This document shows positions 2,039 to 34,955 of a stretch of 64,000 nucleotides of DNA, piece by piece. This stretch comes from an uncultured Holophagae bacterium (GTDB lineage: Bacteria; Acidobacteriota; Thermoanaerobaculia; Thermoanaerobaculales; Sulfomarinibacteraceae), in contig CAWJPY010000001.1 in the NCBI GenBank assembly GCA_963844865.1, forward strand, positions 81,415 through 145,414, read 5' to 3'. The position numbers and the translations under genes were made by a program. The notes under the pieces are model-generated. The model was not told the DNA's origin, searched no databases, and worked only from the letters and a program-made list of their open reading frames with translations. Within the stretch, counting starts at the first letter, position 1. Each line of letters opens with the position of its first letter.

Positions 2039-2246
2039 CCTCGCCAGGGCGTAGCTCTCAGCCGCCTCTCGCGGTTTGGAGCGGCCCGGCTTGCCAAGGC
2101 GAAGTCGCGGTGGGCGGGCGCAGACGAAGCCTGGTGGAGGCGGTGGGAATCGACCACGCCGAAGACAGCGGCTGCGGCTGTGGCCGAGGGGGTCCGCAGG
2201 AGGGGGTCGGACGGCCTACAGCCGCCCGCTGGTCTCGGCGGGGCGC
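2039..2246 (-). repeat. copy A of a ~210-240-nt repeat element containing a second copy of the ssrA T-arm/acceptor/CCA end (2132-2153)
   Basis: 22/22 nt identity between 2132-2153 and 2347-2368 (27/29 with a 2-nt gap). The flanks share ordered blocks with 22379-22614: GCGCCCCGCC, CCAGCGGG, GGCCGTCC, GACCCCCTCGGCCAC, CCGCTG, CGTGGTCGA, CCACCAGGCTTCGT, AAGCCGGG, CGGCTGAGA, CTACGCCCTGGC. Confidence 0.6.
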
Positions 2247-2306
2247 CGCGGCGGGAGGGGGATGGGGGGCCGCGAGCCACCCACAGTGAGATTCCCACCG
2301 TAACCG

Positions 2307-2338
2307 AAGACGAAAGAAGCCGCCCGTCTGGCGGCTTC
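2307..2338 (-). terminator. rho-independent terminator of ssrA
   Basis: On the minus strand, 9 nt after the CCA end: GAAGCCGCC-agacg-GGCGGCTTC followed by TTTCGTCTT. Confidence 0.55.
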
Positions 2339-2346
2339 GACGTCTT

Positions 2347-2696
2347 TGGTGGAGGCGGTGGGAATCGAACCCACGTCCGAGGAACTCCGGCCGGCGGTGT
2401 CTCCGTGTGCAGCCCACCGGGTGTATCTCGTCCCCCGGCCAGTCGGTGGGCACCCATGCCGGGGGACCAGCCCCTGAGTTCTCGACTACCGGGTCAGGGC
2501 TCCCCGGTGGTCCAGCCCGTCAAACGGCGCCGAGCCCTGGCCGACAGGCGGAGCCGTCGGGTCGGCGCGGCTGCTTACGCAGCCAGTGCGTAGTCGTTGT
2601 TGGCAGTTGTGTTTGCCCCACCCGTTTTACGAGCGGATGGACCTCGACACGCTGCCGACAGCCGGACATGTTCCCCGTCGAGCCCAGTACGCCCCC
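2347..2696 (-). ncRNA. ssrA: tmRNA (transfer-messenger RNA)
   Basis: On the minus strand: 5' GGGGGCGUACUGGGCUCGACGGGG acceptor/D-like start. The internal tag ORF GCC AAC AAC GAC TAC GCA CTG GCT GCG TAA encodes ANNDYALAA (2575-2604). The 3' end is CGTGGGTTCGATTCCCACCGCCTCCACCA (T-arm, acceptor, encoded CCA). Confidence 0.92.
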
Positions 2697-2928: not shown

Positions 2929-3315
2929 TCACTGCGTGGGGTGAAGGAGGCGCCACGTCATTGCCCGAACCTGATCAAACCGGGCGAGCACGCTGCCAGC
3001 CGCCGCCGGATCGACTGCTCCTGTCGCAGCCAGGAGGCGCAGGTGGCTGTCGACCTCCTTGGCCGACGCGTACGCGATTCTCCAGAAGTGCTGGCGATCG
3101 CGACCGGAGCGACCGTGGCCTTCAGCCAAATTGGCTGCCACCGAGCTCGCCGAGCGGATCACCTGGTCGGTGATGGACTTCAGCGGAGCCGGCAGCCGCA
3201 TCACGAGCCTGATGGCGGTGCCCGCTGCGTCGAGGGCCTTGCAGTGGGCGATCAGGCCGGGGTTGGCGGGGGCGTCGAGCATGTTCACCTCCGGGTCGTT
3301 CATGCTCTCGCGCAA
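2929..3315 (-). CDS. four-helix-bundle protein (23S rRNA intervening-sequence protein family)
   Basis: Motifs typical of this family: SITDQVIRSASSVAANLAEGHGR...F..IA.GSA.E. The start is uncertain (Met at 3315, 3303 or 3282). Confidence 0.75.
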   Translation of the reverse strand: MRESMNDPEVNMLDAPANPGLIAHCKALDAAGTAIRLVMRLPAPLKSITDQVIRSASSVAANLAEGHGRSGRDRQHFWRIAYASAKEVDSHLRLLAATGAVDPAAAGSVLARFDQVRAMTWRLLHPTQ

Positions 3316-3733
3316 CAGGCCGGTGGGCAGCCCACCTCAAGGGTGCGAAGCATCGCTGCGAAGCGTGCGGAGCACCGGTCCACCGGACCGGGTCCCCTTG
3401 ACGTGGGCTGGCCACCGCCTACATTCCCGACCGAACGACCCGGAGGTGAACATGCCGCAGCGCGCTGGCCGCTGGCCGCTGTGCGCTGCCCGCGGTCGCT
3501 GCCGCTGACCGCTGCCGCTGCCGCCGCTGGCCTCACCTACGACCTCGCGCCCTGGAAGCACCAGAGAGGGTGCCAGGCAACGTCAAAGCCGCAACGGAAC
3601 ACTCGGTCTCTTCATCTCCAACGGTGCCTGGCACCCACTCTCGCCTGCCCATCGCCGCTCATGCAGCACTTGACTGAGAACCCTGCGGGTGCCATATTGA
3701 CCTCGTCCCACGCTGCAATTGAAGGGAATTTCC

Positions 3734-8905: not shown

Positions 8906-9952
8906 GTGAACCCCTGGATCACCTACCTCGCCATCCCGATGGCCAAGATCGTGGTCATCCTGAGCGTGCTGCTGCTGATCGTGGCCTACCTGACCTTCGC
9001 CGAGCGCAAGGTGCTGGCCTACATGCAGGCCCGCGTCGGCCCGAACCGGGTCGGCCCCCGGGGCTGGCTGCAGCCCATCGCCGACGTCCTGAAGCTGTTC
9101 GCCAAGGAGGACCTGGTCCCCGCCAAGGCCGAGCGCTTCGTGTTCCTGCTGGCGCCGATCTTGATCTTCGTCCCGGCCTTCATCGTCTGGGCGGTGATCC
9201 CCTTCGGCGAGCAGTTCACGGTCGCCGGCGTCCCCGTCGACGCCTTCATTTCGGACATCAACATCGCCATCCTGTTCGTCCTCGGGGTGTCCTCCATCGG
9301 CGTGTACGGCATCATCCTCGGCGGCTGGTCGTCCAACAACAAGTTCTCCCTCATGGGCGGCCTGCGGTCGGCGGCCCAGCTCGTCTCCTACGAGATCCCC
9401 CTCGGCTTCGCCGTGGTCTCGGTCCTGCTCATGGCCGAGTCCCTGTCCCTGGTGGACATCGTGGAGTCCCAGCGCCAGGCCGGGCTCTGGTACTTCGTCC
9501 CCGGCATCCTCGGCCTCGGCATCTACTTCATCTGCGGGGTGGCCGAGACCAACCGCAATCCCTTCGACCTCCCCGAGGCCGAGTCGGAGCTGGTGGCCGG
9601 GTTCCACACCGAGTACTCGGGCATGAAGTTCGCGCTGTTCTTCCTGTCCGAGTACATGAACATGCTGCTGGTGTCATCCCTGGCGGTGATCCTCTTCTTC
9701 GGCGGCTGGCTGCCGCCCTTCCCCAACCTCCTGGCCGGACTCTGGGCGTGGCCCGGGCTGGCCTGGATCCCGCCGTTCCTCTGGTACCTGGCCAAGGTGA
9801 TGGTCTTCATCTTCGCCTACATCTGGTTCCGCGGGACCTTCCCCCGCTACCGCTTCGACCAGCTCATGAGCGTGGGTTGGAAGTGGCTGCTGCCCCTGTC
9901 CCTGGCCAATGTGGCCCTGGTCGCGGTCGGGGTGCTCCTCGTCAAGGGATAG
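8906..9952 (+). CDS. nuoH: NADH-quinone oxidoreductase subunit H
   Basis: AERKVLAYMQARVGPNRVGP..GWLQPIADVLKL and ETNRNPFDLPEAESELVAGFHTEYSG motifs. It follows nuoD directly, with no nuoEFG between. Confidence 0.93.
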   Translation: MNPWITYLAIPMAKIVVILSVLLLIVAYLTFAERKVLAYMQARVGPNRVGPRGWLQPIADVLKLFAKEDLVPAKAERFVFLLAPILIFVPAFIVWAVIPFGEQFTVAGVPVDAFISDINIAILFVLGVSSIGVYGIILGGWSSNNKFSLMGGLRSAAQLVSYEIPLGFAVVSVLLMAESLSLVDIVESQRQAGLWYFVPGILGLGIYFICGVAETNRNPFDLPEAESELVAGFHTEYSGMKFALFFLSEYMNMLLVSSLAVILFFGGWLPPFPNLLAGLWAWPGLAWIPPFLWYLAKVMVFIFAYIWFRGTFPRYRFDQLMSVGWKWLLPLSLANVALVAVGVLLVKG

Positions 9953-11548: not shown

Positions 11549-13651
11549 ATGACGCCGTACGAGTTGATCTGGTTGGTTCCCCTGTTCCCCCTCGCGGGTG
11601 CGGCCTTCAACGGCTTCGTCTCCAACCGCCGAGGCTACTCCAAGACGACCGCTCACACCGTGGCCCTCCTCGGCTCGGGCCTGGCCTGGCTGTGGGGGTG
11701 GGCGGCGGTGATCTGGTGGGCCGTCGCCGAAGACCACGCCCGACCCTACGTGGTCCACCTCTTCGACTGGATCCTGGGCGGCTCGGTGCCCATCGCGGAC
11801 GGTTCCCTGGCGCCGATCCACATCGCCGCCTCCTTCCAGCTGGACCCGCTGTCGGCGGTGATGGTGGCGTTCGTGACCTTCGTGGGCTTCCTGATCCACC
11901 TCTACTCCGTGGGCTACATGCACTCGGAGTCGGACCGTGCCTACGCCCGGTACTTCGCCTACCTGAACCTGTTCATGTTCGCCATGCTGACCCTGGTGCT
12001 GGGCTCCAACCTGCCGGTCCTGTTCGTGGGCTGGGAGGGCGTGGGGCTGTGCTCGTACCTCCTCATCGGCTTCTACTTCGATAAGGAGTGGTGCGCGTCG
12101 GCCGGCAAGAAGGCGTTCATCGTCAACCGTATTGGTGACTTCGGCTTCCTGCTCGCGATCTTCGCGTGCTTTGCCACCTTCGGATCCACCGAGTTTCAGG
12201 CCATGTTCCCGGCCGCGGCGGCCCACCCCGAGCAGTACATGGGGGCGGCCACGGTGATCGCCCTGCTGCTCTTCGTGGGAGCGGTGGGCAAGTCGGCCCA
12301 GATCCCGCTGTACGTGTGGCTGCCGGACGCCATGGCCGGTCCGACCCCGGTGTCGGCCCTCATCCACGCCGCGACCATGGTCACGGCGGGGGTGTACATG
12401 GTGGCGCGGTGCAACGTGTTCTTCCGGCTCAGCCCCACGGCCATGCTGGTGGTGGCGCTCGTGGGCGGGGTGACGGCGGTGTTCGCGGCGACCATCGGTC
12501 TGGTGCAGAACGACATCAAGAAGGTGCTGGCCTACTCCACGGTGTCCCAGCTCGGGTACATGTTCCTGGGGGCGGGGGTGGGGGCCTTCGTGGCGGCCAT
12601 CTTCCACGTGGTGACCCACGCCTTCTTCAAGGCCTGCCTGTTCCTCGGCTCGGGGTCGGTGATCCACGCCTGCGGGGGCGAGCAGGACATGCGCAAGATG
12701 GGCGGGCTGAAGAAGGTGATGCCCACCACCTACTGGACGTTCCTGATGGCGACCATCGCCATCGCCGGCATCTTCCCGTTCGCGGGCTTCTTCTCCAAGG
12801 ACAAGATCCTGGCCGCCACCTTCGCCGCGGCCTACGGCGACCTCAACGGCTTCGGGACGGTGATCTCGGTGCTGTGGGTGCTGGGCCTGGGGGGCGCGTT
12901 CCTCACCGCCTTCTACATGTTCCGGCTGGTGTACATGACCTTCCACGGGGAGTTCCGGGGCTCAGACGAAGCGAAGCACCACCTGCACGAGTCGCCGTGG
13001 ACCATGACGCTGCCCCTGATCGTGCTCGGGAGCCTGTCGGTCGTCGGCGGCTTCATGGGCTTCCCCGGCGAGCTGGCGCAGCACGCCGAGCTGAACGGCA
13101 TCGAGCGCTTCCTGGAGCCCATCCTGCTGCCCATCCACCACGGGGCGGAGGCCGCGGAGCACGCCGTGCACCACGTGCCCCTGTCCCTGGAGCTGGGGCT
13201 GATCGCCCTCTCCCTGGTGGTCGCCGGCTCCGGGATCTGGGTGGCGGCGCGCTTCTACCACGGCGTCCACCCCTTCGAGCGGGCGCGCCGTCTCGCCGAC
13301 CGCTTCCCCTTCGCCTACCGGCTGCTCCTCAACAAGTACTGGGTGGACGAGCTGTATGAAGCGACGGTGGTGGCGGGCTCGGTCAAGCTGGCGGACCTCC
13401 TGTGGGAGGCCGATGCGCGGGTGGTGGACGGCGCGGTCAACGGCACCCGCCACGTGACGGTGGGATCGAGCTTTCTCTCCGGCATCTTCGACCTCAGGGT
13501 GGTGGACGGTCTGGTCAACCTCGTGGCGAGGATCTACGACGTGGCCAGCCACCGCTTCCGCCGCCTGCAGATGGGCTTCACCCAGGGCTACGCCATGGTG
13601 ATGGTCTTCGGAGCGGCCGTCCTGCTGGTCGCGTTCCTGATCACGTACTAG
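11549..13651 (+). CDS. nuoL: NADH-quinone oxidoreductase subunit L
   Basis: 700-aa antiporter-like subunit (WEGVGLCSYLLIGF, GKSAQIPLYVWLPDAMAGPTPVSALIHAATMV) with a long C-terminal lateral-helix region. Confidence 0.93.
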   Translation: MTPYELIWLVPLFPLAGAAFNGFVSNRRGYSKTTAHTVALLGSGLAWLWGWAAVIWWAVAEDHARPYVVHLFDWILGGSVPIADGSLAPIHIAASFQLDPLSAVMVAFVTFVGFLIHLYSVGYMHSESDRAYARYFAYLNLFMFAMLTLVLGSNLPVLFVGWEGVGLCSYLLIGFYFDKEWCASAGKKAFIVNRIGDFGFLLAIFACFATFGSTEFQAMFPAAAAHPEQYMGAATVIALLLFVGAVGKSAQIPLYVWLPDAMAGPTPVSALIHAATMVTAGVYMVARCNVFFRLSPTAMLVVALVGGVTAVFAATIGLVQNDIKKVLAYSTVSQLGYMFLGAGVGAFVAAIFHVVTHAFFKACLFLGSGSVIHACGGEQDMRKMGGLKKVMPTTYWTFLMATIAIAGIFPFAGFFSKDKILAATFAAAYGDLNGFGTVISVLWVLGLGGAFLTAFYMFRLVYMTFHGEFRGSDEAKHHLHESPWTMTLPLIVLGSLSVVGGFMGFPGELAQHAELNGIERFLEPILLPIHHGAEAAEHAVHHVPLSLELGLIALSLVVAGSGIWVAARFYHGVHPFERARRLADRFPFAYRLLLNKYWVDELYEATVVAGSVKLADLLWEADARVVDGAVNGTRHVTVGSSFLSGIFDLRVVDGLVNLVARIYDVASHRFRRLQMGFTQGYAMVMVFGAAVLLVAFLITY

Positions 13652-22229: not shown

Positions 22230-22302
22230 GGGCCGTTAGCTCAGCTGGTAGAGCATCGGACTTTTAATCCGGTGGTCCCGGGTTCGAGTCCCGGACGGCC
22301 CA
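22230..22302 (+). tRNA. tRNA-Lys: tRNA-Lys (anticodon UUU)
   Basis: The cloverleaf was folded by hand: GGGCCGT/ACGGCCC acceptor, GCTC/GAGC D-stem, TCGGA-CTTTTAA-TCCGG anticodon arm, CCGGG-TTCGAGT-CCCGG T-arm, discriminator A. CCA is not encoded (CTC follows). Confidence 0.93.
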
Positions 22303-22378
22303 CTCACCCTGGAAGCACCTCTCACCGGAACGGCCTCGATATCGTTCGCGCCGTCCGCCCCGCACCCAACCTCACGGC

Positions 22379-22614
22379 GCGCCCCGCCCCGGCCAGCGGG
22401 TGGCCGTATGGCCGTCCCTCCCCCTCTCCGCCAGGCCTGCGACCCCCTCGGCCACGGCCACACACCGCTGCCCGAGCCGTGGTCGAGTCCCGGACGGCCC
22501 ACCAGGCTTCGTTCTCAGCCGTAGGATGAGAACGAAGCCTGCCACGGCGTAGCCGCAGGCGAAGCCGGGTCGCCCCGGGTCTCGAGACTCGGCTGAGAAC
22601 TACGCCCTGGCAGG
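22379..22614 (+). repeat. copy B of the repeat element, containing a second copy of the tRNA-Lys T-arm/acceptor end plus CCA (22483-22505)
   Basis: TCGAGTCCCGGACGGCCCAC at 22483-22502 is identical to tRNA positions 22284-22303 (24/26 when extended 5'). The flanks are homologous to 2039-2246 on the minus strand. The downstream part folds into a 12-bp hairpin (22505-22539) and a 16-bp long-range stem (22536-22551 with 22600-22615). Confidence 0.6.
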
Positions 22615-22789
22615 CGTTACGACGCGGGCGCTGATCACACCTGGAGACGCAACTCACAGCCTTATTTGTGAAACATCGTCTCATGATTTACGAGTGCTCC
22701 ACCACGGCGGGAAACGGCTATGATGGTGAGCGGACCAAGCATCGCGCGCAGTGGAGAGAGGCTGATCTTCCCGAGCCCGAGGGGGGCAC

Positions 22790-23788
22790 ATGGCGACACG
22801 CATGCCGAGCTCGACAGGGGTCGATCAACGTGAGCGGCCCGGCGAGCTCTGCGACACCTGCACGCTGTTTCCCGACTGCGCCCGTCGCCGCCAGCAGCAG
22901 ACTCCGGTACTCGAATGTGAGCTCTACCAGGAGGGCGACTGGAGTGTCGACCTGGTGGCGGCGCTGGTCGACCGCAACGCCGGGCAGCGGGGCGGGCTGA
23001 TCTCGACCCTGGAGGGCATCCAGGCCAAGTACGGCTACCTGCCCGAGGGTGCGCTGCGGGTGGTCGCGGAGCGCACCGGCCGGTCCCTGGTCGACATCTA
23101 CGGCGTGGCGACCTTCTACCGCGCCTTCAGCCTCGAGCCCCGCGGCAAGCACCTGTGCTCGGTCTGCGTCGGCACGGCGTGTCACGTCCGCGGCGCCCCG
23201 CTCGTCCATGACGAGTTCGAGCGCCAGCTCGAGGTGGAGGCCGGTCACACCACCTCAGACGGCGAGTTCACGCTCGAGACCGTCAACTGCCTGGGCGCCT
23301 GCGCCCTCGGGCCGATGGTGGTGATGGACGGGCACTACTTCTCGAACGTCGATCGGCGAAAGGTCGCAGATGTGATCTCGAAGACCCGGGTCGGCCTCGA
23401 CTTCGTGACGCCCGCCGGCGACGCCCGCGTATTTCCGGTGGAGGTCTACTGCGCCCGCTGCAATCACAGCCTGATGGACCCCGACCACCCCATCGAGGGC
23501 CAGCCGTCGGTGCGGGTCACCATCTCGTTCGGCCGCCGCCACGGTTGGCTGCGGCTCTCCTCCCTGTACGGCAGCTACACCATCGAGTCGGAGCACGACA
23601 TCCCGCCGGACACGGTGGCCAACTTCTTCTGTCCCCACTGCCACGGGGAGCTCGCCGGGGCCACCGACTGCCCGATGTGCGGGGCGCCCATGGTGCCGCT
23701 GATCGTGCGCGGCGGCGGCATGGTCCAGATCTGCTCGCGGCGCGGCTGCCACAGCCACATGCTCGACCTCAACGGCGTCAACCTGTGA
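22790..23788 (+). CDS. NuoE/HoxE/HydC-like [2Fe-2S] subunit with extra Cys-rich N- and C-terminal regions
   Basis: The central region LISTLEGIQAKYGYLP...VATFYRAF...HLCSVCVGTACHVRGA...VNCLGACALGP is the thioredoxin-like 2Fe-2S fold of NuoE. The C-terminal ~125 aa carry CxxC x3 plus CxxxxCH. The start is uncertain (a GTG near 22947 would give a canonical-length N-terminus). Confidence 0.8.
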   Translation: MATRMPSSTGVDQRERPGELCDTCTLFPDCARRRQQQTPVLECELYQEGDWSVDLVAALVDRNAGQRGGLISTLEGIQAKYGYLPEGALRVVAERTGRSLVDIYGVATFYRAFSLEPRGKHLCSVCVGTACHVRGAPLVHDEFERQLEVEAGHTTSDGEFTLETVNCLGACALGPMVVMDGHYFSNVDRRKVADVISKTRVGLDFVTPAGDARVFPVEVYCARCNHSLMDPDHPIEGQPSVRVTISFGRRHGWLRLSSLYGSYTIESEHDIPPDTVANFFCPHCHGELAGATDCPMCGAPMVPLIVRGGGMVQICSRRGCHSHMLDLNGVNL

Positions 23789-23804
23789 CGGTGACGGAGG
23801 CCTG

Positions 23805-26800
23805 ATGGAGAAGCTGCAGTCCATCGAGGAGTTCCACGGCCTCGGCGAGCGCCTGCGCGTCGACAGCCGGGCTGCTGTGGGGCCCACCATCGTCATTCCA
23901 GCCGGAACCTGCGGCCAGGCGAGCGGAGCCAACGACCTGATCCGGGTCACCAAACGGACGCTGCTCGAACGCGGCCTGGGGGATCGGGTGGCGCTCCGGA
24001 TCACCGGCTGCCACGGCTACTGCCAGGCGGAGCCGTCGGTGCTCGTGGAGCCGCACCGGACCTTCTACCCGAAGGTCGACATCGACGGCATGGTGCGCAT
24101 CGTCGAGGCGACGGCGGCAGGTGGGATCGTGGAGGACCTGCTGTTCTCAGACCCCGCGACCGGCCGCCGCATCGAGCGCCAGGACGACGTCCCGTTCTTC
24201 GTCCGTCAGCAGCGGCTGCTGCTGCGTCGCAACGAGGCGGTGGACCCGATCAGGATCTTCAACGCCATCGAGCGCGGCGGCTACGCGGCGTTCGTCGGCC
24301 TGCTGGAGTCCGGCCGCGCCGAGGATGTCCTCGACGCCCTGCGCCGATCCGGCCTGCGGGGCCGCGGCGGCGCCGGGTTCCCGACCTGGCGCAAGTGGCA
24401 GATGCTCGCCGAACGCCCCTCGGACCGCGGCAAGTTCCTGGTGTGCAACGCCGACGAGGGCGACCCCGGCGCCTACATGGACCGCAGCCTGCTCGAGGGC
24501 AACCCCCACTCGATCCTCGAGGGCATGCTGATCGGGGCCTTCACCACCGGCGCCACCGAGGGCGTGATCTACGTGCGCGCCGAGTACCCCCTCGCCATCA
24601 AACACCTGACCATCGCGCTCCGCCAGGCCCGCGAGCTGGGCCTGCTCGGCGACGACATCCTCGGCGCTGGCTTCGCTTTCGAGGTGGCGCTGGTGCGCGG
24701 CGCCGGCGCCTTCGTGTGCGGCGAGGAGACGGCGCTGATCGCGTCGATCGAGGGCCGCATGGGCGAGCCCCGACAGCGGCCGCCGTTCCCGGTCGAGCGC
24801 GGCATCGACGGCCGCCCGACGGTGATCAACAACGTCGAGACCTGGGCCAACATGCCGCTGATCGTCGGCGAGGGGGCGGAGGCGTACGCCGCCGCGAGCG
24901 GCGGCGCGGGAGGCGGTACCAAGATCTTCAGCCTGGTGGGAAAGGTCGCCAACACCGGTCTGGTGGAGGTGCCCATGGGCACCCCCATCGCCGACATCGT
25001 GTACGGGATCGGGGGCGGCTCGTCCTCGGGCAAGCGGATCAAGGCAGTGCAGACGGGAGGTCCTTCCGGCGGCTGCATCCCGGCCGCCCGCTTCGACCTG
25101 CCCATCGACTACGACAGCCTGGCGAGCGCCGGCTCGATCATGGGCTCCGGGGGCATGATCGTGATGGACGACGACACCTGCATGGTGGACGTCGCCAGGT
25201 ACTTCATGAGCTTCCTGCGCGAGGAGTCCTGCGGCAAGTGCTTCACCTGCCGCAAGGGCACCCAGCGCATGCAAGAGATCCTCTCCGACATCAGCGAGGG
25301 GCGGGGAACCCTTGCGCAGATCGACCTGCTCGAGGAGCTGGCGCAGGTGGTCCGCGACACCTCCATGTGCGGCCTCGGCCAGTCCGCGGCCAACCCGGTG
25401 CTGACCACCCTGCGCAGCTTCCACGACGAGTACCGCCGCCACGTTGTGGACCGCCGCTGCGACGCCTTCGTGTGCACCGAGCTGGTCGGAGCGCCCTGCC
25501 AGGCGGCGTGCCCGGTCGGCACCGAGGCGTGGCGCTACGTGGCGCACATCGCGCGCGGCGAGGTGGAGGAGGCCTACCGGGTGATCCGCGAGGCCAACCC
25601 CTTCCCGTCGGTGTGCGCGCGCGCCTGCGACCACCCGTGCGAGGAGCGCTGCCGGGCCGGCACCAGCGGCGGCGACGCGGTGGCCATCCGCGCCCTGAAG
25701 CGCTTCGTCACCGACCGCGTCGAGCCCTCCGCCTACCGTCCGGCGCGGCGTCCCTGGGCGGACGGCTCACCGCCGCGCATCGCGGTGATCGGCGCCGGGC
25801 CGGCGGGGCTCACGGCGGCCCACATGCTGTCCCTCGCCGGTGGTCGCGTCACCGTCTTCGAGGCGGACACCGAACCGGGCGGCATGCTCTATTGCGCCAT
25901 CCCTTCCTACCGGCTGCCCCGCGAGGTGGTCGAGCGCGAGATCGAGGCGCTGCTCGACGACACCGTCGAGGTCCGCTGCGGCGTCGCGCTGGGCCGCGAC
26001 GTCACCATCGACGGCCTCCTTGCAGACGGCTACGACGCGGTGCTCCTGGCCATGGGCGCCCACAAGAGCCGCGCGCTCGACCTCGACGGCGAGGACGCCC
26101 GGGGCGTCTTCCCCGCCATCGAGTTCCTGAAGGCGTTCAACCTCCGTGGGGAGCAGCTCGCCCGGGGACGGGTGGTGGTGGTCGGGGGCGGCAACTCGGC
26201 CATCGACGCCGCGCGGACGGCGATCCGCCAGCGCGACGTGGAAAGCGTCACCATCCTCTACCGTCGCACCCGCGCCGAGATGCCGGCCTTCGCCGAGGAG
26301 ATCGACGCCGCGCTCGAGGAGGGGATCGTCCTCGAGACGCTGGCGGCGCCGGCGGGCATCGACACCACCGACGGAGCACTGTCGCGCCTGGAGTGCCTCC
26401 GCAACACCCTCGGCGACGCCGACGCGAGCGGCCGCCGGCGCCCGGTACCGGTCCCCGGCAGCGAGTTCTCACTCGACCTCGACACCCTGATCGTCGCCAT
26501 CAGCGAGGACTCGGGCGTCGATGCCGTCACCCCGGCGCGCGGTGGAGGCATCGAGATCACCGCCCGCAACACCGTCAAGGTCGACCCCGAGACGCTGCAG
26601 ACCAGCCGGGAGGGGGTGTTCGCCGCCGGCGACGTGGTCAGCGGGCCCAACACCATCGTGGACGCCGTGGCGGCCGGCAAACGGGCGGCGGCGATGATCG
26701 AGCGCTTCCTCCTCGGGCGCCCGCTCCAGATACCGGCCACGGGTTCGGTCCCGACCGTCTACGTGGAACCTCCGGCGGCGGGCGACGCCACCGCCCCCGA

Positions 26801-26975
26801 GACGGACCGGGTCGAGACCCCCCGCGCGTCGGTGGCCTGGCGGCGGCGCAACTTCGCCGAGGTGGAGGTGACCTTGTCGCCGGAGGAAGCGCGGCGCGAG
26901 GCCGGCCGCTGCCTCCGCTGCGATCTCGAGTTCACGAAACCGGCGGAGCACGCGCTGGCGAAGGTGGGAGGGTAG
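23805..26975 (+). CDS. NuoF/HydB-like FMN/NADH subunit fused to a GltD-like FAD/NAD(P)H oxidoreductase
   Basis: The N-terminal 2Fe-2S-like domain is followed by GLRGRGGAGFPT, CGEETALIASIEG and ESCGKCFTCRKG..MCGLG (NuoF core). Then come the GltD-type FeS region (CQAACPV..., CARACDHPCEERC), VIGAGPAGLTAA and VVGGGNSAIDAA dinucleotide folds, and the C-terminal CLRCD. Confidence 0.88.
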   Translation: MEKLQSIEEFHGLGERLRVDSRAAVGPTIVIPAGTCGQASGANDLIRVTKRTLLERGLGDRVALRITGCHGYCQAEPSVLVEPHRTFYPKVDIDGMVRIVEATAAGGIVEDLLFSDPATGRRIERQDDVPFFVRQQRLLLRRNEAVDPIRIFNAIERGGYAAFVGLLESGRAEDVLDALRRSGLRGRGGAGFPTWRKWQMLAERPSDRGKFLVCNADEGDPGAYMDRSLLEGNPHSILEGMLIGAFTTGATEGVIYVRAEYPLAIKHLTIALRQARELGLLGDDILGAGFAFEVALVRGAGAFVCGEETALIASIEGRMGEPRQRPPFPVERGIDGRPTVINNVETWANMPLIVGEGAEAYAAASGGAGGGTKIFSLVGKVANTGLVEVPMGTPIADIVYGIGGGSSSGKRIKAVQTGGPSGGCIPAARFDLPIDYDSLASAGSIMGSGGMIVMDDDTCMVDVARYFMSFLREESCGKCFTCRKGTQRMQEILSDISEGRGTLAQIDLLEELAQVVRDTSMCGLGQSAANPVLTTLRSFHDEYRRHVVDRRCDAFVCTELVGAPCQAACPVGTEAWRYVAHIARGEVEEAYRVIREANPFPSVCARACDHPCEERCRAGTSGGDAVAIRALKRFVTDRVEPSAYRPARRPWADGSPPRIAVIGAGPAGLTAAHMLSLAGGRVTVFEADTEPGGMLYCAIPSYRLPREVVEREIEALLDDTVEVRCGVALGRDVTIDGLLADGYDAVLLAMGAHKSRALDLDGEDARGVFPAIEFLKAFNLRGEQLARGRVVVVGGGNSAIDAARTAIRQRDVESVTILYRRTRAEMPAFAEEIDAALEEGIVLETLAAPAGIDTTDGALSRLECLRNTLGDADASGRRRPVPVPGSEFSLDLDTLIVAISEDSGVDAVTPARGGGIEITARNTVKVDPETLQTSREGVFAAGDVVSGPNTIVDAVAAGKRAAAMIERFLLGRPLQIPATGSVPTVYVEPPAAGDATAPETDRVETPRASVAWRRRNFAEVEVTLSPEEARREAGRCLRCDLEFTKPAEHALAKVGG

Positions 26976-26978
26976 CCG

Positions 26979-27656
26979 ATGGTCACGCTCACCATCAACG
27001 GCCTCGAGGTGTCCGTCGAGCGGGGCTCGACGATCCTGGAGGCGGCGCAGTTCCTCGGCTTCCCGATCCCGACCCTGTGCCACATGGAGGGCCTGTCGCC
27101 CTACGGCGCCTGCCGCCTGTGCGTGGTCGAGGTCGGCAACGGCTCCCGTACCCAGCTCGTCACGTCCTGCACCCACCCGGTGGTCGAGGGCATCACGGTC
27201 CGCACCGCCTCGGAGCGCGTGGTGCGGGCGCGGCGGATGATCGTCGAGCTGCTGCTGGCGTCGTGCCCGCAGTCGAAGACGATCCAGGACCTGGCGTCGG
27301 CGCTCGACGTCCGCCAGCAGCGCTTCCGGCAGGAGCACGAGGACTGCATCCTGTGCGGCCGCTGCGTCCGCATGTGCGCCGAACAAATGGCCGGCTCGGC
27401 GATCGGCTTCCGCGGCCGCGGACCGACCCGCAGCATCGGCACACCGTTCGACGCCGCCTCCGAGAAGTGCCGGCTCTGCGGCGGCTGCATGTACGTCTGT
27501 CCCGCGTGCGAGCTGCGCTGCACCTACACCGAGCCGGAGAAGGCCATCTGCGGCGGCTGCGCCAACCTGGCGCCGCCGTGCGTGGACAAGCCCCGGTTCG
27601 ACGACATGATGTGCTTCCTGGACCCGTGCGTGGCCTGCGAGATCAAACCCGACTGA
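26979..27656 (+). CDS. NuoG/HydA N-terminal-like [2Fe-2S]/[4Fe-4S] ferredoxin subunit (no catalytic domain)
   Basis: TINGLEVSVERGSTILEAA...PTLCH...GACRLCVVEV (plant-type 2Fe-2S as in NuoG), followed by CILCGRCVRMC and CRLCGGCMYVCP cluster motifs. Confidence 0.82.
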   Translation: MVTLTINGLEVSVERGSTILEAAQFLGFPIPTLCHMEGLSPYGACRLCVVEVGNGSRTQLVTSCTHPVVEGITVRTASERVVRARRMIVELLLASCPQSKTIQDLASALDVRQQRFRQEHEDCILCGRCVRMCAEQMAGSAIGFRGRGPTRSIGTPFDAASEKCRLCGGCMYVCPACELRCTYTEPEKAICGGCANLAPPCVDKPRFDDMMCFLDPCVACEIKPD

Positions 27657-27676
27657 GTGCGGGGGGAGGAGAGAAG

Positions 27677-29266
27677 ATGTCTCTGTCGAGAATCAACGCG
27701 ACGGCGGCGACGCTGACCAAGAATCGGACCGAGGGCTCGGTGGTCCCCACCTCCGGGATGTGCGTCACCTGCGTCGACGGCTGCATCGGCATGTGCGAGA
27801 TCGGCAAGTCCGCCTACCGCGGCCACGAGGTGATCTACCCGCAGCCGTTCGGCGTCATCACCACCGCCGGCGAGAAGCTCTACCCCGTGGACTACTCGCA
27901 CTTCAACATCATGGGCACGGCGGTCGGCGCCCACGGCATCGAGGCCGACAGCGACCGGGCGGTGTTCCCGGCGGTGGACCTGGAGGTGCGCTTCGGCCAC
28001 GACGACGGTCTCAAGTTCCGGCGGCCGTGGATCATCCCCGGCATCGGCTCCACCGACGTGGCGCGCAACAACTGGGAGGGCATCGCCATCGGCTCGGCGC
28101 TCGCCGGGACCGGGCTGACCATCGGCGAGAACGTGGTCGGCATGGACATGGAGGCGGTCATCAAGGACGGTCGCGTCACCGACACCTCAGACCTCAAGCG
28201 CCGCGTCAAGCTCTACAAGGACCACCAGATCGACGGCTACGGCGCGATCATCGTCCAGGCCAACGTGGAGGACACGCGGCTGGGCACGCAGGAGTACGCG
28301 ATCCAGGAGCTCGGTGTGGAGTGCGTCGAGCTCAAGTGGGGTCAGGGCGCCAAGAACATCGGCGGCGAGGTCAAGATCAAGGACCTCGCCAAGGCCCAGG
28401 AGCTGTACCGCCGCGGGTACATCGTGCTGCCGGACCCGACCGACGAGCGCGTCGTCCAGGCCTTCCACCGCGGGACGTTCCGCGAGTTCGAGCGCCACTC
28501 ACGGGTCGGCATGGTCGAGGAGGAGGCGTTCGCCCAGAGGGTCGAGGAGCTGCGCTCAGCCGGCGCCCGCTACGTCTTCCTGAAGACCGGGGCCTACCGT
28601 CCGGCGGACCTGGCGCGGGCGGTGGCCTGGTCGTCGAAGTACGGGATCGACCTGCTGACCGTGGACGGAGCGGGAGGTGGAACGGGCATGAGCCCGTGGC
28701 ACATGATGAACGAGTGGGGGGTCCCGCCGGTGGAGCTCCACTCCCTGCTCTACCAGTACGCCGACCGGCTCTTCAGCGAGGGCCGCCCGCTGCCCGCGAT
28801 CGCGCTGGCCGGCGGCTTCGTCTTCGAGGACCAGATCTTCAAGGGGCTCGCCCTCGGTGCGCCGTACGTCAAGCTCGTGGGCATGGCGCGGGCGCCCATC
28901 GCGGCCGCCATGGTCGGCAAGACCATCGGCCGCACCATCGACGAGGGCCAGATCCCGGTCTACGTGGAGCGCTTCGGCCGCAGCCGCGACGAGATCTTCG
29001 TCACCGCCGCCGAGCTCCGCGTCCTGGTCGGCGACGAGGCGTTCGAGAAGCTCCCGACCGGCGCCATCGGGCTCTACACCTACTTCGAGCGGCTCGCCCA
29101 GGGGCTGCGGCAGCTCATGTGCGGGGCACGCAAGTTCACGCTCGAGCACATGTCGCGGGACGATCTCGCGTGCCTGACCCGCGAGGCCGCCGACATCAGC
29201 GGCATCCGCTACCTGCTGGACGTGGACCGCGAGGAGGTGGACACGATTCTCGACGGCCGCCACTGA
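27677..29266 (+). CDS. glutamate-synthase-related FMN-binding (GltS FMN domain) protein with an N-terminal Cys cluster
   Basis: LKWGQGAKNIGGEVK, TVDGAGGGTGMSP and LAGGFVFEDQIFKGLALGAPYVKLVGMAR match the GltB FMN/TIM-barrel domain. The N-terminus has CVTCVDGCIGMC. No amidotransferase or GXGXG domains are present. ATG 27677 follows GGAGGAGAG. Confidence 0.82.
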   Translation: MSLSRINATAATLTKNRTEGSVVPTSGMCVTCVDGCIGMCEIGKSAYRGHEVIYPQPFGVITTAGEKLYPVDYSHFNIMGTAVGAHGIEADSDRAVFPAVDLEVRFGHDDGLKFRRPWIIPGIGSTDVARNNWEGIAIGSALAGTGLTIGENVVGMDMEAVIKDGRVTDTSDLKRRVKLYKDHQIDGYGAIIVQANVEDTRLGTQEYAIQELGVECVELKWGQGAKNIGGEVKIKDLAKAQELYRRGYIVLPDPTDERVVQAFHRGTFREFERHSRVGMVEEEAFAQRVEELRSAGARYVFLKTGAYRPADLARAVAWSSKYGIDLLTVDGAGGGTGMSPWHMMNEWGVPPVELHSLLYQYADRLFSEGRPLPAIALAGGFVFEDQIFKGLALGAPYVKLVGMARAPIAAAMVGKTIGRTIDEGQIPVYVERFGRSRDEIFVTAAELRVLVGDEAFEKLPTGAIGLYTYFERLAQGLRQLMCGARKFTLEHMSRDDLACLTREAADISGIRYLLDVDREEVDTILDGRH

Positions 29267-29283
29267 GCGGCGGAGGAGGCACC

Positions 29284-29616
29284 ATGAAGCTCGCGATGCC
29301 GGTTGCCAAGGGTCGCCTGGCGTCGTCCCTCGAGGTCGCCGAGTCCTTCGACATCGTCGAGGTGGACCTCGTGGCGCGAAGCGCGTCGAACGCCTGGCGC
29401 TCGGACCCGGCGCACCGCAGCGGCGCGGAGCTCGCCGAGTGGCTCCTCGGCGAGGGCGTCGACCTCGTGATCGCCGGGAACATCGGGTCGTGGGAGCGCG
29501 GCTGGCTCGAGGGACGCGGGCTGCGAGTCCTCGCCGGGGTGCCCCGGGAAGCGCCTCGCGAGCTCGTCAGGGCGTACCTCGAGGACGAGCTCGAGCAGGC
29601 GACGACCACAGCCTAG
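29284..29616 (+). CDS. NifX/NifB-C-terminal/NafY-like (dinitrogenase FeMo-cofactor-binding fold) small protein
   Basis: MKLAMPVAKGRLAS...FDIVEV...LVIAGNIGSWERGWLEGRGLRVL matches the pattern of this family. GGAGGAGG RBS is present. It is the last gene of the operon. Confidence 0.6.
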   Translation: MKLAMPVAKGRLASSLEVAESFDIVEVDLVARSASNAWRSDPAHRSGAELAEWLLGEGVDLVIAGNIGSWERGWLEGRGLRVLAGVPREAPRELVRAYLEDELEQATTTA

Positions 29617-32800: not shown

Positions 32801-33077
32801 TGCGGAGGTGGACTACGACATCCTGGCCGGCCGCGACGGCGGAACCAAGCTCGCCTCGCGGCTGGGCTGGTTGGCCGCCGGCTCCCTCGACCACGAGGGC
32901 CCGCCGACCCAGGGCATGCGCGAGGTGGCCTTCGATATCGCCCGCGGGGTCGCGGAGCAGAAGAAGGCGCTGGAGCGCTGGATCGGGCAGGACCTGGCCG
33001 CCTTCAACGCCGCGGCGGCCCGGCTCGGGCTGCCGCACGTCGTCTCCGATGCCACAAGCGAGGCTCAGTCGAAGTAG
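29876..33077 (+). pseudogene. BNR/sortilin (VPS10)-like repeat glycosidase-like exported protein, disrupted by about 8 frameshifts
   Basis: Signal peptide MRNHPLRHALLLLALSLLVGG, then repeated S.DGG.TW motifs. The conserved sequence continues across all three forward frames, with switches near 30385, 30625, 30815, 31025, 31140, 31680, 31730 and 31885. The last 1.2 kb is a single frame. Confidence 0.8.
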
Positions 33078-33370
33078 TCGACCTTGCAGCCGCAGCCGTC
33101 CCACATCCGCTCGTAGATCTCCAGGCGGCTGTCCAGGAGGTGGTTCGCCTGCTCCCTGGTCGACGTCCGACGCACCAGGATCTTTCCGTCCGGCGTCTCC
33201 TCTTGGACGACGGTCATTCCCCGCACGTCCAGGATGCGGATCATGCCGGCCACCAGGGTGTCGTCCTCGCGGATGGCCACGGCTGCGGCGAGCAGGGCAT
33301 CCAGGGTCTCGCGGTCGATGACGGTGTAGGCCTCACGGCCCAGGTCGCCGATCAGCGTGTCCAGATCCAC
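33065..33370 (-). CDS. small protein of unknown function, paralog 1 (C-terminal YERMWDGCGCKVDYF motif)
   Basis: About 50% identical to the 39326-39676 product over ~95 aa. GTG 33370 after GGAGGA aligns with the paralog's Met. The upstream part of ORF 33065-33595 is Arg-rich and not coding-like. Confidence 0.6.
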   Translation of the reverse strand: MDLDTLIGDLGREAYTVIDRETLDALLAAAVAIREDDTLVAGMIRILDVRGMTVVQEETPDGKILVRRTSTREQANHLLDSRLEIYERMWDGCGCKVDYFD

Positions 33371-34556: not shown

Positions 34557-34955
34557 ATGGCACAGGACAGAAGCAGTGCCCAGAGCACGGGAATCAGGGG
34601 CCGCACCCCCGGCGGGCGTGGCAGTGGGGGCGGACGAGGCATGGGAGGAGGTGGACGAGGCATGGGAGGAGGTGGACGAGGCATGGGAGGAGGTGGGGGA
34701 AGAGGAGCCGGCGGAGGCGGAGGAATGGGTGGTGGCGGCGGCAGGGGAATGGGCCCGGGCGGGGGCGGCATGGGCGGGGGCGGCTTCTGCGTCTGCGCCA
34801 AGTGCGGCCAGCGATTCCCTCATCGCCCAGGTGTGCCGTGTCTGGAGGAGCGCTGCCCCGATTGCGGCGTCGCACTGGTGCGGGAGGGCTCGGCACATCA
34901 CCGCGAGATCGAGGCGCGCCGGAGCCGCAGAGGTGGTGACAACGACGCGGGCTGA
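34557..34955 (+). CDS. Gly/Arg-rich low-complexity protein with a C-terminal zinc-ribbon-like Cys motif
   Basis: About 70 aa of GGRGMGGG-type repeats, then FCVCAKCGQRFPHRPGVPCLEERCPDCG. GGAGGA lies before ATG 34557. Confidence 0.6.
   Translation: MAQDRSSAQSTGIRGRTPGGRGSGGGRGMGGGGRGMGGGGRGMGGGGGRGAGGGGGMGGGGGRGMGPGGGGMGGGGFCVCAKCGQRFPHRPGVPCLEERCPDCGVALVREGSAHHREIEARRSRRGGDNDAG
34632..34694 (+). repeat. perfect in-frame 21-bp tandem repeat x3
   Basis: GGACGAGGCATGGGAGGAGGT occurs three times, encoding GRGMGGG x3. Confidence 0.9.

What the first reader, a model, noticed from the sequence alone, without database searches (positions are those of the whole stretch)
2039..2368. A second copy of the ssrA 3' end lies 215 nt downstream of tmRNA, inside an element that recurs at tRNA-Lys
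Seen directly:
- The last 22 nt of tmRNA (T-loop, acceptor, CCA; 2347-2368) are repeated in direct orientation at 2132-2153. Identity is 27/29 if a 2-nt gap is allowed, so the copy covers the whole T-arm.
- The sequence on both sides of this copy is homologous to the region downstream of tRNA-Lys 20 kb away. Ordered shared blocks include GACCCCCTCGGCCAC (15 nt), CCACCAGGCTTCGT, CTACGCCCTGGC, CGGCTGAGA and GCGCCCCGCC.

Inference:
- A plain attL/attR pair would explain the direct repeat.
- It would not obviously explain why the unit between the repeats is only ~190 nt at both loci.
- It also would not explain why homology continues past the second copy.
- Candidate explanations are miniature non-autonomous integrative elements (CIME-like, att-flanked, no integrase), twice-decayed related islands plus a shared REP-like downstream element, or a functional tRNA-like RNA module.
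- An 11-nt inverted copy of the T-arm (CGGTGGGAATC, about 2290-2300) also sits between the repeats.
Basis: seen in the sequence. Interest (0 to 1): 0.7.

Follow-up and report, generated by a model that had tools for sequence, protein, structure and literature searches.

The report
Hairpin element splitting spare tRNA ends
Downstream of both the tmRNA gene and a tRNA-Lys gene sits a spare copy of the gene's last 20-22 bases, left by an old site-specific insertion, and a small gene-less palindromic DNA element sits at the T-loop position in front of that copy; the repeat itself is ordinary, but the element may be a new kind of T-loop-seeking parasite.

Summary
The last 22 nt of ssrA recur at 2132-2153. 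The last 20 nt of tRNA-Lys recur at 22483-22504. About 200 nt around each second copy are homologous (E 8e-17).

The region has three layers.

1. The second copy plus the DNA after it ("Y") is the ancestral gene end. Relatives L127, L133 and L135 have tRNA-Lys-CCA joined directly to Y. The repeat is therefore an att-type scar at the T loop, as known for ssrA islands.

2. Y is a REP/BIME-like flank module. It forms tandem arrays in relatives that also encode REP-associated transposases.

3. The homologous core upstream of the second copy ("X-body", about 125 nt) is probably a discrete element.
- It always lies between GGT(T) and TCGA of a T loop.
- In L090 and L135 it splits displaced tRNA-Lys fragments without duplication.
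- It occurs once as an abutting tandem pair.
- Its long stem has 12 of 19 pairs with compensatory changes and no G-U pairs.
- Copies group by lineage, not by locus.

No integrase, transposase, Rfam family, phage match or plasmid match was found. My best reading is a non-autonomous, T-loop-specific palindromic element. Its mobilising enzyme is unknown.

The parts
2347..2696 (-). tmRNA gene (ssrA), tag ANNDYALAA, CCA encoded. Its last 22 nt (2347-2368) are copy 1 of the direct repeat.
   Evidence: ARAGORN; Rfam RF00023, 150 bits.
2280..2346 (-). X-left at the tm locus. It holds the intrinsic terminator of ssrA (2316-2338), then GGTTACGGTGGGAATCTCACTGTGGGT. It contains the 11-nt inverted T-arm match (2290-2300) and ends in a T-stem-5'-like GTGGGT. 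This may be a decayed fossil of the tmRNA sequence 5' of the T loop.
   Evidence: Terminator scan. 69% identity to L124. GAATCTCA..GGT(T) is kept in L124 and L136, and more loosely in L142 (GAAATCC..CGGT). Anchored similarity to the gene: p 0.016.
2154..2279 (-). X-body at the tm locus. Stem 1 is CGCGG...CCGCG. The long imperfect stem 2 pairs 2212-2231 with 2166-2186. The right end is TCTTCGGCGTGG.
   Evidence: Covariance model R1: 98.5 bits, E 5.5e-16. The minimum-energy fold is one long hairpin, z -4.0. Covariation.
2132..2153 (-). Copy 2 of the ssrA 3' end: TCGATTCCCACCGCCTCCACCA, running from the T-loop 3' half to CCA. Homology with the syntenic relative L124 stops exactly at its CCA.
   Evidence: 22/22 identical to L124, then 28% identity after CCA.
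2039..2131 (-). Y module at the tm locus: GGCTTCGT...AAGCCGGG...CGGCTGAGAGCTACGCCCTGGC. It is a REP/BIME-like flank.
   Evidence: Homology to 22505-22611, E 1.5e-10. The same module follows copy 2 in L136 and L142, where it is tandemly repeated 4 times.
22230..22303 (+). tRNA-Lys(UUU) gene with no encoded CCA (...GGCCCA|CTCACC). Its last 20 nt (22284-22303) are copy 1.
22304..22346 (+). X-left at the Lys locus. It is 43 nt, is not homologous to the tm X-left, and ends in ...ATCGTT.
22347..22482 (+). X-body at the Lys locus. Stem 1 is CGCGCCG...CGGCGCG. Stem 2 pairs 22394-22414 with 22449-22470. The right end is CCCGAGCCGTGG.
   Evidence: Model R1: 82.9 bits, E 4.3e-13. 84% identical to the tm X-body over the stem 2 region.
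22483..22504 (+). Copy 2 of the tRNA-Lys 3' end with CCA: TCGAGTCCCGGACGGCCCACCA. This is the ancestral end of the gene.
   Evidence: In L127, L133 and L135 the intact gene ends ...CCCACCA and is followed directly by the Y-type module.
22505..22611 (+). Y module at the Lys locus. A 15-bp hairpin (about 22503-22541) is followed by TGCCACGGCGTAGCC...GCGAAGCCGGG...CGGCTGAGAACTACGCCCTGGC. This is the native tRNA-Lys flank.
   Evidence: 83% identical to the sequence directly after tRNA-Lys in L127 (sequence).
22505..29286 (+). Strain-variable segment that starts exactly after the CCA of copy 2. It holds Y plus 6.8 kb: a NuoE-like gene, a NuoF-GltD fusion, a 2Fe-2S/4Fe-4S protein and an unknown ORF of about 500 aa. 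A 99.5%-identical relative (L002) has 195 unrelated nt in its place.
   Evidence: blastn of L001 and L002 against the window; sequences; Pfam.

Best explanation
Three superimposed things explain the locus.

**(1) An att-type scar.** Foreign DNA once recombined into the T loop of ssrA and of tRNA-Lys. It brought a replacement 3' end, which is now part of the working gene. It pushed the original 3' end (copy 2, with CCA) and its native flank about 200 nt downstream.

**(2) A REP/BIME-like flank.** The flank (Y) is a repeat module that normally follows these genes in Thermoanaerobaculales. That is why homology continues past copy 2.

**(3) A separate palindromic element.** The homologous core between the repeats (X-body) is about 102-136 nt and carries no gene. 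It has a short left hairpin and a long bulged right hairpin. It lies between GGT(T) and TCGA of a T loop.

**Inferred mechanism.** The element is mobilised in trans by a structure-recognising DNA recombinase or transposase. A Y1/HUH-type enzyme or a site-specific recombinase acting on a folded strand are the candidates. It inserts without target duplication into T-loop sequences. It survives only in spare, non-essential 3' fragments, because a hit in the working gene would be lethal.

**Shown versus inferred.** Shown: the repeats, the empty sites, the discrete body with constant flanks, the tandem pair, the covarying stem, and the grouping by lineage. Inferred: mobility, the enzyme, and the order of events in the window.
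For: **Scar.**
- Relatives without the insert have tRNA-Lys-CCA fused to Y: L127, L133 and L135.
- The window gene lacks CCA, whereas copy 2 has it.
- Synteny with L124 (about 75% nt identity) and with L002 (99.5%) breaks exactly at the CCA of copy 2.

**Y.**
- The module follows tRNA-Lys or tmRNA copy 2 in L127, L133, L135, L136 and L142. It is tandem in L127, L133 and L142.
- It has GTAG/CTAC-flanked palindromes.
- A REP-associated tyrosine transposase is encoded in L132 (NF047646).

**X-body as a separate insertion.**
- In L090 (7179-7434) and L135 (12104-12271), a tRNA-Lys fragment runs from the anticodon stem to GGTT. It is joined directly to the X-body, then to TCGAG...CCA.
- In L135 the two T-stem halves on either side match each other (GCTGG/CCAGC) but not the working gene.
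- In L135, at 13255-13483, two X-bodies of different subtypes abut with nothing between them.
- All six copies that keep their 5' gene-side flank are preceded by GGT(T) or GTT. All five with an intact 3' flank are followed by TCGA.
- The covariance model finds only 2 copies in the 64-kb window, both at T loops.
- Stem 2: 19 pairs, 96.5% paired, 12 with changes on both sides, 0 one-sided changes, 0 of 500 shuffles as high.
- A purine-rich bulge on the 3' arm is kept in every copy.
- Grouping by lineage: win_tm-win_Lys 84% and L124_tm-L090_Lys 91%, against 73-74% for the same locus across lineages.
- There is a weak fossil of tmRNA sequence just 5' of the X-body at four tm loci (p 0.006-0.044).
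Against: - No transposase or integrase with matching ends was found in about 290 kb of related DNA.
- The Y1 genes seen (L132, L142) are flanked by unrelated repeats.
- All known copies come from loci that were fetched because they carry tRNA-Lys or tmRNA. T-loop specificity therefore rests on a biased sample plus the two window copies.
- The L090 and L135 structures could also arise from a window-type arrangement by deletion between short GGTT repeats. The two may share ancestry.
- In the window itself, the tRNA-Lys X-left shows no significant fossil of the gene (p 0.17).
- The tm arrangement is present in all five lineages examined, with X-left 69% conserved. This could mean old vertical inheritance under some host constraint rather than mobility.
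- The covariation count used arms I trimmed by hand. The percentage paired is therefore biased upward.
Confidence: 0.5

Rival explanations
1. The whole roughly 200-nt unit is one miniature integrative element: the replacement 3' end, X-left and X-body together. On this view it is an attP-only circle, CIME-like. A T-loop-specific integrase encoded elsewhere integrates it, and the X-body is its P arm abutting the crossover.
For: - The size and layout are the same at two loci in one genome and in other lineages.
- The unit is flanked by 20-22-nt repeats that start in the T loop.
- The right end GCGTGG resembles a T-stem 5' strand, as a core-type binding site would.
- Presence and absence at tRNA-Lys vary among relatives.
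- Grouping by lineage fits repeated visits by one element family.
- Precedent for gene-poor, att-flanked ssrA units: PMC3146451.
Against: - The tandem X-bodies in L135 have no core copy or X-left between them.
- X-bodies in L090 and L135 follow tRNA fragments that begin in the anticodon stem. That is the signature of anticodon-loop islands, in which everything to the right of the crossover is old host sequence.
- X-left is not homologous between the tm and Lys units.
- No integrase-bearing relative was found in genome, metagenome, viral, phage or plasmid searches.
Confidence: 0.25
2. X (or the X-body plus copy 2) is kept because it serves the host. It could be a long bidirectional terminator or insulator between an essential RNA gene and a variable island region. 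It could be a decoy landing pad that diverts integrases from the working gene. It could be a small RNA from the 3' trailer.
For: - The tm arrangement is present in 5 of 5 lineages, down to about 75% genome identity.
- Between the window and L124, X-left is 69% and X-right 73% identical with no gaps in X-right. The tmRNA promoter region was not aligned by BLAST.
- The island junction lies at copy 2, not at the gene.
Against: - At tRNA-Lys the insert is absent in L127, L133, L134 and L135, and it is decaying in L128 and L132.
- The downstream genes differ between lineages.
- There is no promoter-like site in X and no Rfam family.
- The absence of G-U pairs argues against an RNA structure.
- Grouping by lineage rather than by locus is not expected for a vertically kept host feature.
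Confidence: 0.12
3. The X-body is the scaffold of a guide RNA, and the adjacent 18-22 nt of tRNA or tmRNA sequence is its guide. This is the layout of the omega-RNA of IS200/IS605 TnpB elements, where the scaffold lies in the right end and the guide is the flanking DNA. A nuclease encoded elsewhere would re-cut emptied T-loop sites and drive the element back in.
For: - The layout fits: a conserved structured body of about 102-136 nt, immediately followed by the only locus-specific segment.
- Insertion is without duplication, downstream of a constant short motif (GGTT).
- Gene-less IS200/IS605 derivatives that still encode such RNAs are described (PMC10055086).
Against: - No TnpB or IscB gene appears among the Pfam-annotated genes of the related loci.
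- There is no Rfam hit and no promoter-like site.
- Stem 2 has no G-U pairs.
- A 4-nt adjacent motif would not by itself explain T-loop exclusivity.
Confidence: 0.08

Closest known systems
ssrA- and tRNA-specific genomic islands with T-loop insertion, e.g. Dehalococcoides ssrA-GIs (PMC3146451). The integration sublocations in tRNA/tmRNA genes described by K. P. Williams (2002-2003) are recalled from memory; the paper is not held.
   Same: - A direct repeat of the last 20-22 nt of the gene.
- A junction in the T loop.
- A conserved non-gene motif just upstream of the repeat.
- A working gene rebuilt from incoming DNA.
- A variable region beginning at the repeat.
- Tandem fossils, as in L135.
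   Different: - The bounded segment is only about 195-215 nt and holds no integrase or any other gene.
- Its conserved part is a bulged palindrome. That palindrome also occurs alone inside T loops and in tandem.
Gene-less derivatives of IS200/IS605 elements (PATEs) and other hairpin-ended MITEs (PMC10055086).
   Same: - Small, with no gene.
- Hairpins near both ends.
- Insertion without target duplication next to a constant short motif.
- Must be mobilised in trans.
- Copies within a genome resemble each other most.
   Different: - No partner element with the same ends was found.
- The target appears to be a whole T-loop context rather than 4-5 nt.
- Few copies are known.
REP/BIME repeats and their RAYT transposases.
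   Same: - Applies to Y: GTAG/CTAC-flanked palindromes, extragenic position, tandem clusters, and a RAYT gene in a relative.
- The X-body shares the covarying-palindrome character.
   Different: - The X-body is much longer than a REP.
- It has two different hairpins and conserved bulges.
- It is found only at T loops in the data at hand.
Integron attC sites and folded single-strand attP of CTX-type phages.
   Same: - A long imperfect hairpin whose structure, extrahelical bases and variable terminal loop are kept while the sequence drifts.
- Head-to-tail arrays at one site.
   Different: - There is no GTTRRRY core at the junctions.
- No IntI or Xer link was tested.
- The element carries no cassette ORF.

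Membership tests
Integrase-borne tRNA/tmRNA genomic island (attL-island-attR) | Direct repeat of the 3' part of the target gene bounding the insert | tested here: met
   A 22-nt repeat (ssrA) and a 20-nt repeat (tRNA-Lys), against 0.01-0.04 expected by chance.
Integrase-borne tRNA/tmRNA genomic island (attL-island-attR) | Empty site in relatives: gene end contiguous with the DNA that follows the distal repeat | tested here: met
   In L127, L133 and L135, tRNA-Lys-CCA is directly followed by the Y module. No empty tm site was found among 5 lineages.
Integrase-borne tRNA/tmRNA genomic island (attL-island-attR) | Integrase gene, and usually cargo, inside the bounded segment | tested here: not met
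   Only 193 nt (tm) and 179 nt (Lys) lie between the repeats. The ORFs listed over these stretches overlap the RNA genes or each other in GC-rich DNA and were not treated as genes.
CIME (cis-mobilisable element: att-flanked, no recombination genes, derived from and mobilised with an autonomous element) | att sites on both sides and no recombinase gene | tested here: met
CIME (cis-mobilisable element: att-flanked, no recombination genes, derived from and mobilised with an autonomous element) | A related autonomous element using the same att site | tested here: inconclusive
   None was found in the viral, genome or metagenome pattern scans, nor in phages or plasmids.
CIME (cis-mobilisable element: att-flanked, no recombination genes, derived from and mobilised with an autonomous element) | Excision as a circle by attL x attR recombination | not testable with these tools
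   Needs PCR or read-level data.
IS200/IS605-derived gene-less element (PATE) | Insertion without target-site duplication | tested here: met
   In L090 and L135 the flanks rebuild a canonical T arm with at most one ambiguous T.
IS200/IS605-derived gene-less element (PATE) | Constant short motif immediately 5' of the left end | tested here: met
   GGT(T) or GTT precedes all six copies that keep their 5' gene-side flank: win_tm, win_Lys, L124, L128, L090, L135a. The same holds for the L135 tandem pair.
IS200/IS605-derived gene-less element (PATE) | Imperfect hairpins near both ends | tested here: met
   Stem 1 (CGCGCC...GGCGCG) and stem 2.
IS200/IS605-derived gene-less element (PATE) | Autonomous relative (Y1 TnpA, with or without TnpB) carrying the same ends | tested here: inconclusive
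   Y1 genes exist in L132 (RAYT) and L142 (150 aa). Their flanks are unrelated repeats. Only about 290 kb of related DNA was searched.
REP/BIME (for the Y module) | Short GTAG/CTAC-associated palindromes, extragenic and clustered, with a RAYT gene in the genome | tested here: met
   GCCACGGCGTAG/CTACGCCCTGGC inverted pair. Tandem arrays in L127, L133 and L142. RAYT NF047646 in L132. No RAYT was looked for in the window's own genome.
Known RNA family or tRNA-like gene | Match to an Rfam model or to a tRNA/tmRNA detector | tested here: not met
   Only the two genuine genes were found. Nothing appeared in X or Y at E up to 5, including group I introns.
Integron attC site | R'' / R' boxes with a GTTRRRY core at the cassette junction | tested here: not met
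   The junctions read GGGT|TGCTCG, GTGA|TGACTG and GTGG|TCGA.

The most novel reading that the evidence does not exclude
The X-body is the first member of a class of gene-less mobile elements that home specifically to the T loop of tRNA-like sequences. They would do so either by a structure-specific recombinase acting on the folded palindrome, or by an RNA guide made of the X-body scaffold plus the adjacent tRNA 3' end. They would persist by living in the spare gene ends that genomic islands leave behind.
Probability: 0.2. Interest if true: 0.75.

Novelty: new variant of a known kind. Interest (0 to 1): 0.45.

Why it matters
tRNA and tmRNA genes are the main docking sites for genomic islands, and the short repeats left behind are usually treated as inert scars. 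Here the scars are occupied by a small palindromic element that keeps its structure across lineages. It sits at one exact position of the T loop and marks the point where strain-specific DNA begins.

If the element is truly mobile and T-loop-specific, three things follow:
- It adds a new target-selection mode for non-autonomous bacterial elements.
- It gives a search handle (model R1 plus the GGT^TCGA context) for finding the enzyme.
- It warns island-finding software that a duplicated tRNA end need not bound an island.

If it is not mobile, the locus is an ordinary but well-documented example of layered integration scars in Thermoanaerobaculales.

Tried and rejected
- **Retro-element idea.** I considered that copy 2 is a primer-binding-site-like copy of the mature tRNA. 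The locus-specific part is exactly 18 nt, ends in CCA, and the Lys gene lacks CCA. I rejected this because relatives show that CCA-Y is the ancestral genomic sequence.
- **tRNA-like RNA or intron in the T loop.** ARAGORN and Rfam found nothing, including group I introns.
- **Y as the left end of a second island.** This is not needed, since Y follows the intact gene in relatives. No third copy of either 3' end exists in the window.
- **X-left as a fossil of the gene.** Unanchored alignments were not significant. Anchored ones are weakly significant for tm only.
- **Pattern scans.**
  - Two viral scans found nothing, and a third gave only chance hits in coding DNA.
  - The genome scan returned 118 loci, almost all of them chance. 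The Dehalococcoidia hit I read (L095) lies in coding DNA. Only L090 was real.
  - The metagenome scan gave 3 loci.
- **Phage and plasmid BLAST.** No match.
- **Y1 transposase neighbourhoods in L132 and L142.** Their repeats are unrelated to the X-body.
- **Exact-protein look-ups.** The first ORF starts I tried failed until the thiolase start was corrected.
- **Williams 2002.** The paper could not be read.
Full report
**1. Observation**

ARAGORN and Rfam place tmRNA at 2347-2696 (-) and tRNA-Lys(UUU) at 22230-22303 (+). The last 22 nt of ssrA recur at 2132-2153. A 20-mer search finds exactly these two sites, against 0.01 expected. tRNA-Lys behaves the same way: TCGAGTCCCGGACGGCCCAC lies at 22284-22303 and again at 22483-22502.

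A formal comparison gives one alignment of window 2044-2244 (-) with 22381-22611 (+) at E 8e-17. The parts upstream and downstream of the second copy are significant on their own (E 5e-14 and 1.5e-10). The first 43-68 nt after each gene are not homologous.

I name the parts as follows:
- copy 1: the end of the gene
- X-left: the non-homologous stretch after the gene
- X-body: the homologous stretch upstream of copy 2
- copy 2: the second copy of the gene end
- Y: the homologous stretch after copy 2

**2. Organism and relatives**

Exact-protein look-ups and homologue names place the window in Thermoanaerobaculales (Acidobacteriota). The following related sequences were fetched:
- L001, L002 and L122: 98-99.6% identical to the window
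- L124: syntenic at about 75% nt identity over 13 kb
- L090: from the genome pattern scan
- tRNA-Lys loci of six more lineages, reached through PurA homologues
- tmRNA loci of two more lineages, reached through ComM homologues

**3. Copy 2 plus Y is the ancestral gene end**

In L127, L133 and L135 the intact tRNA-Lys ends ...GGCCCACCA. It is followed directly by a hairpin and TGCCACGGCG(A/T)AGC...GCGAAGCCGG...GAACTACGCCCTGGC, which is the Y module. L127 is 83% identical to the window's copy 2 plus Y.

In the window the working gene has no CCA (...GGCCCA|CTCACC), whereas copy 2 has CCA followed by Y. DNA carrying a replacement 3' end was therefore inserted at the T loop, and the original end was displaced. 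This is the classical signature of site-specific integration into tRNA and tmRNA genes.

A close precedent exists in Dehalococcoides ssrA islands. [quoted passage not shown]

Consistent with an att site, homology with L124 ends exactly at the CCA of copy 2 (22/22 identical, then 28%). The 99.5%-identical L002 diverges from the window exactly there. It lacks Y and the next 6.8 kb (22505-29286) and has 195 unrelated nt instead.

**4. Y is a repeat module, not part of the insert**

Y-type modules follow copy 2 of tmRNA in L136 and L142 as well. They form tandem arrays: four units of about 120 nt in L142, and several units in L127 and L133. They contain inverted GGCGTAG/CTACGCC palindromes. A REP-associated tyrosine transposase is encoded 4.4 kb from tRNA-Lys in L132 (NF047646). 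This accounts for the homology that continues past the second copy.

**5. The X-body looks like a discrete element**

*Split tRNA fragments.* In L090 (7179-7434) and L135 (12104-12271), a tRNA-Lys fragment runs from the anticodon stem to the T-stem 5' strand and GGTT. It is joined directly to an X-body, which is followed by TCGAG...CCA and Y. Three points support reading these as old gene halves:
- In L135 the T-stem halves on the two sides match each other (GCTGG/CCAGC) but not the working gene (CTGGG/CCCAG).
- The DNA left of both fragments is homologous between L090 and L135.
- Identity to the gene starts in the anticodon stem, as expected for the right end of an anticodon-loop island, where everything to the right is old host sequence. 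That expectation comes from my own knowledge of island integration sites.

The X-body therefore lies inside the T loop of a displaced gene half, with no duplicated 3' end.

*Tandem pair.* A third fragment in L135 (from 13213) is followed by two X-bodies of different subtypes that abut each other (13255-13379 and 13380-13483).

*Constant flanks.* All six copies that keep their 5' gene-side flank are preceded by GGT(T) or GTT. All five with an intact right flank are followed by TCGA.

*Copy number.* A covariance model built from six copies was run over 214 kb of related DNA. It finds significant hits only at these places, and only two in the 64-kb window.

*Fossil at tm loci.* At the tm loci the 20 nt just 5' of the X-body weakly resemble the tmRNA sequence 5' of the T loop (p 0.006-0.044). 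The Lys loci do not show this.

**6. Structure**

The X-body has a short left hairpin (CGCGCC...GGCGCG, with a variable loop) and a long imperfect right hairpin whose base reaches the right end.

I counted pairs on arms trimmed to the three paired segments. I made this trimming by hand, so the percentage paired is biased upward. The counts were:
- 19 pairs, 96.5% paired
- 12 pairs with changes on both sides
- no one-sided change and no G-U pair
- no shuffle out of 500 reached these values

A purine-rich bulge of 2-4 nt on the 3' arm is kept in every copy, while the terminal loop varies from about 14 nt (L135) to over 100 nt (L090). The absence of G-U pairs points to a DNA palindrome recognised as a folded strand or cruciform, not to an RNA. 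The reverse strand also folds at least as well in most copies.

**7. Evolutionary pattern**

X-bodies group by lineage, not by locus:

| Comparison | Identity |
|---|---|
| win_tm vs win_Lys (same lineage, different locus) | 84% |
| L124_tm vs L090_Lys (same lineage, different locus) | 91% |
| win_tm vs L124_tm (same locus, different lineage) | 74% |
| win_Lys vs L090_Lys (same locus, different lineage) | 73% |

That L124 and L090 belong to one lineage is inferred from this similarity and from synteny shared with L142. It was not shown directly.

At tRNA-Lys the insert has a patchy distribution:
- next to the gene in the window, L002, L128 and L129
- absent in L127, L133 and L134, and absent next to the working gene of L135
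- decayed in L128 and L132

At tmRNA it is present in all five lineages seen: the window, L124, L136-L141 and L142.

**8. Interpretation**

The repeat is an ordinary att-type scar, and Y is an ordinary repeat module. The X-body is best read as a gene-less palindromic element that inserts, without duplication, between GGT and TCGA of T-loop sequences. It would survive in spare gene ends.

Its mobilising enzyme is unknown. Nothing with matching ends was found in the held DNA, in three viral scans, or in phages and plasmids. The Y1 transposase genes seen in relatives are flanked by other repeats.

The IS200/IS605 way of life fits the anatomy: a single-strand hairpin-ended element, no duplication, a constant adjacent motif, and gene-less derivatives mobilised in trans (PMC10055086). 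Membership is not shown.

**9. Main rival and caveats**

The main rival is that the whole 200-nt unit is a miniature integrative element with the X-body as its P arm. It explains the window alone equally well. It does not explain the abutting tandem pair or the split fragments without further deletions.

Caveats:
- The sample is biased towards tRNA-Lys and tmRNA loci.
- L090 and L135 may not be independent.
- The order of events in the window is inferred.

**10. Verdict**

I rate the finding of moderate interest (0.45). The scar and the flank are already known kinds. The T-loop-embedded palindromic element is a possible new variant of a non-autonomous mobile element, and a genome-wide census would decide it.

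Noticed in passing
window 22505-29286: A 6.8-kb block is absent from two relatives (L001, L002) that are 99.3-99.6% identical on its left. It encodes a NuoE-like 2Fe-2S protein, a 1056-aa NuoF-GltD-type fusion, a 2Fe-2S/4Fe-4S protein and an unknown ORF of about 500 aa. The relatives carry 195 unrelated nt instead. The right flank is only 96.8-98.3% identical, which suggests recombination with a diverged donor.
   Followed up: partly
window 2929-3315 (-), with inverted repeats 2835-2892 / 3467-3524: A gene of the '23S rRNA intervening sequence protein' family (PF05635) lies just upstream of ssrA. It is bracketed by 58-nt GC-rich inverted repeats that are 72% complementary. No function was inferred.
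   Followed up: no
window 34626-34775: A 21-nt tandem repeat (GGAGGTGGACGAGGCATGGGA, 3-4 copies). It presumably encodes a glycine-rich repeat in a protein.
   Followed up: no
window 33070-33216 and 39376-39522: A 147-nt direct repeat at 75% identity, 6.3 kb apart, in a region with several Nitro_FeMo-Co and CbiA/Fer4 family genes. These are probably paralogous genes.
   Followed up: no
L135 9356-13900: Three successive tRNA-Lys ends (one working gene and two fossils) separate small islands. One carries a DUF4185 protein, and BrnT/CopG and HigB/HTH toxin-antitoxin pairs also lie in this stretch. It is a textbook tandem island array at one tRNA gene.
   Followed up: partly
L142 8640-9060 and 5520-5990: A 62-nt unit is repeated about 7 times next to an IS200-like Y1 transposase gene (9262-9714). 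A roughly 120-nt Y-type unit is repeated 4 times downstream of the tmRNA copy 2. These genomes are rich in REP-like arrays.
   Followed up: partly
L001 11477-11596; L130 and L131 contig ends: Assemblies of relatives break or carry an N run right after tRNA-Lys. The locus is evidently repeat-rich or heterogeneous within populations, so MAGs will tend to miss this structure.
   Followed up: no
L133 9777-9813: A fragment resembling the C-rich loop region of the L128 X-body (GGCCGCCCATCCCCCTCTCCGGCCCGGCC) lies about 330 nt downstream of tRNA-Lys, after the Y array. No tRNA-like flank is attached to it.
   Followed up: no
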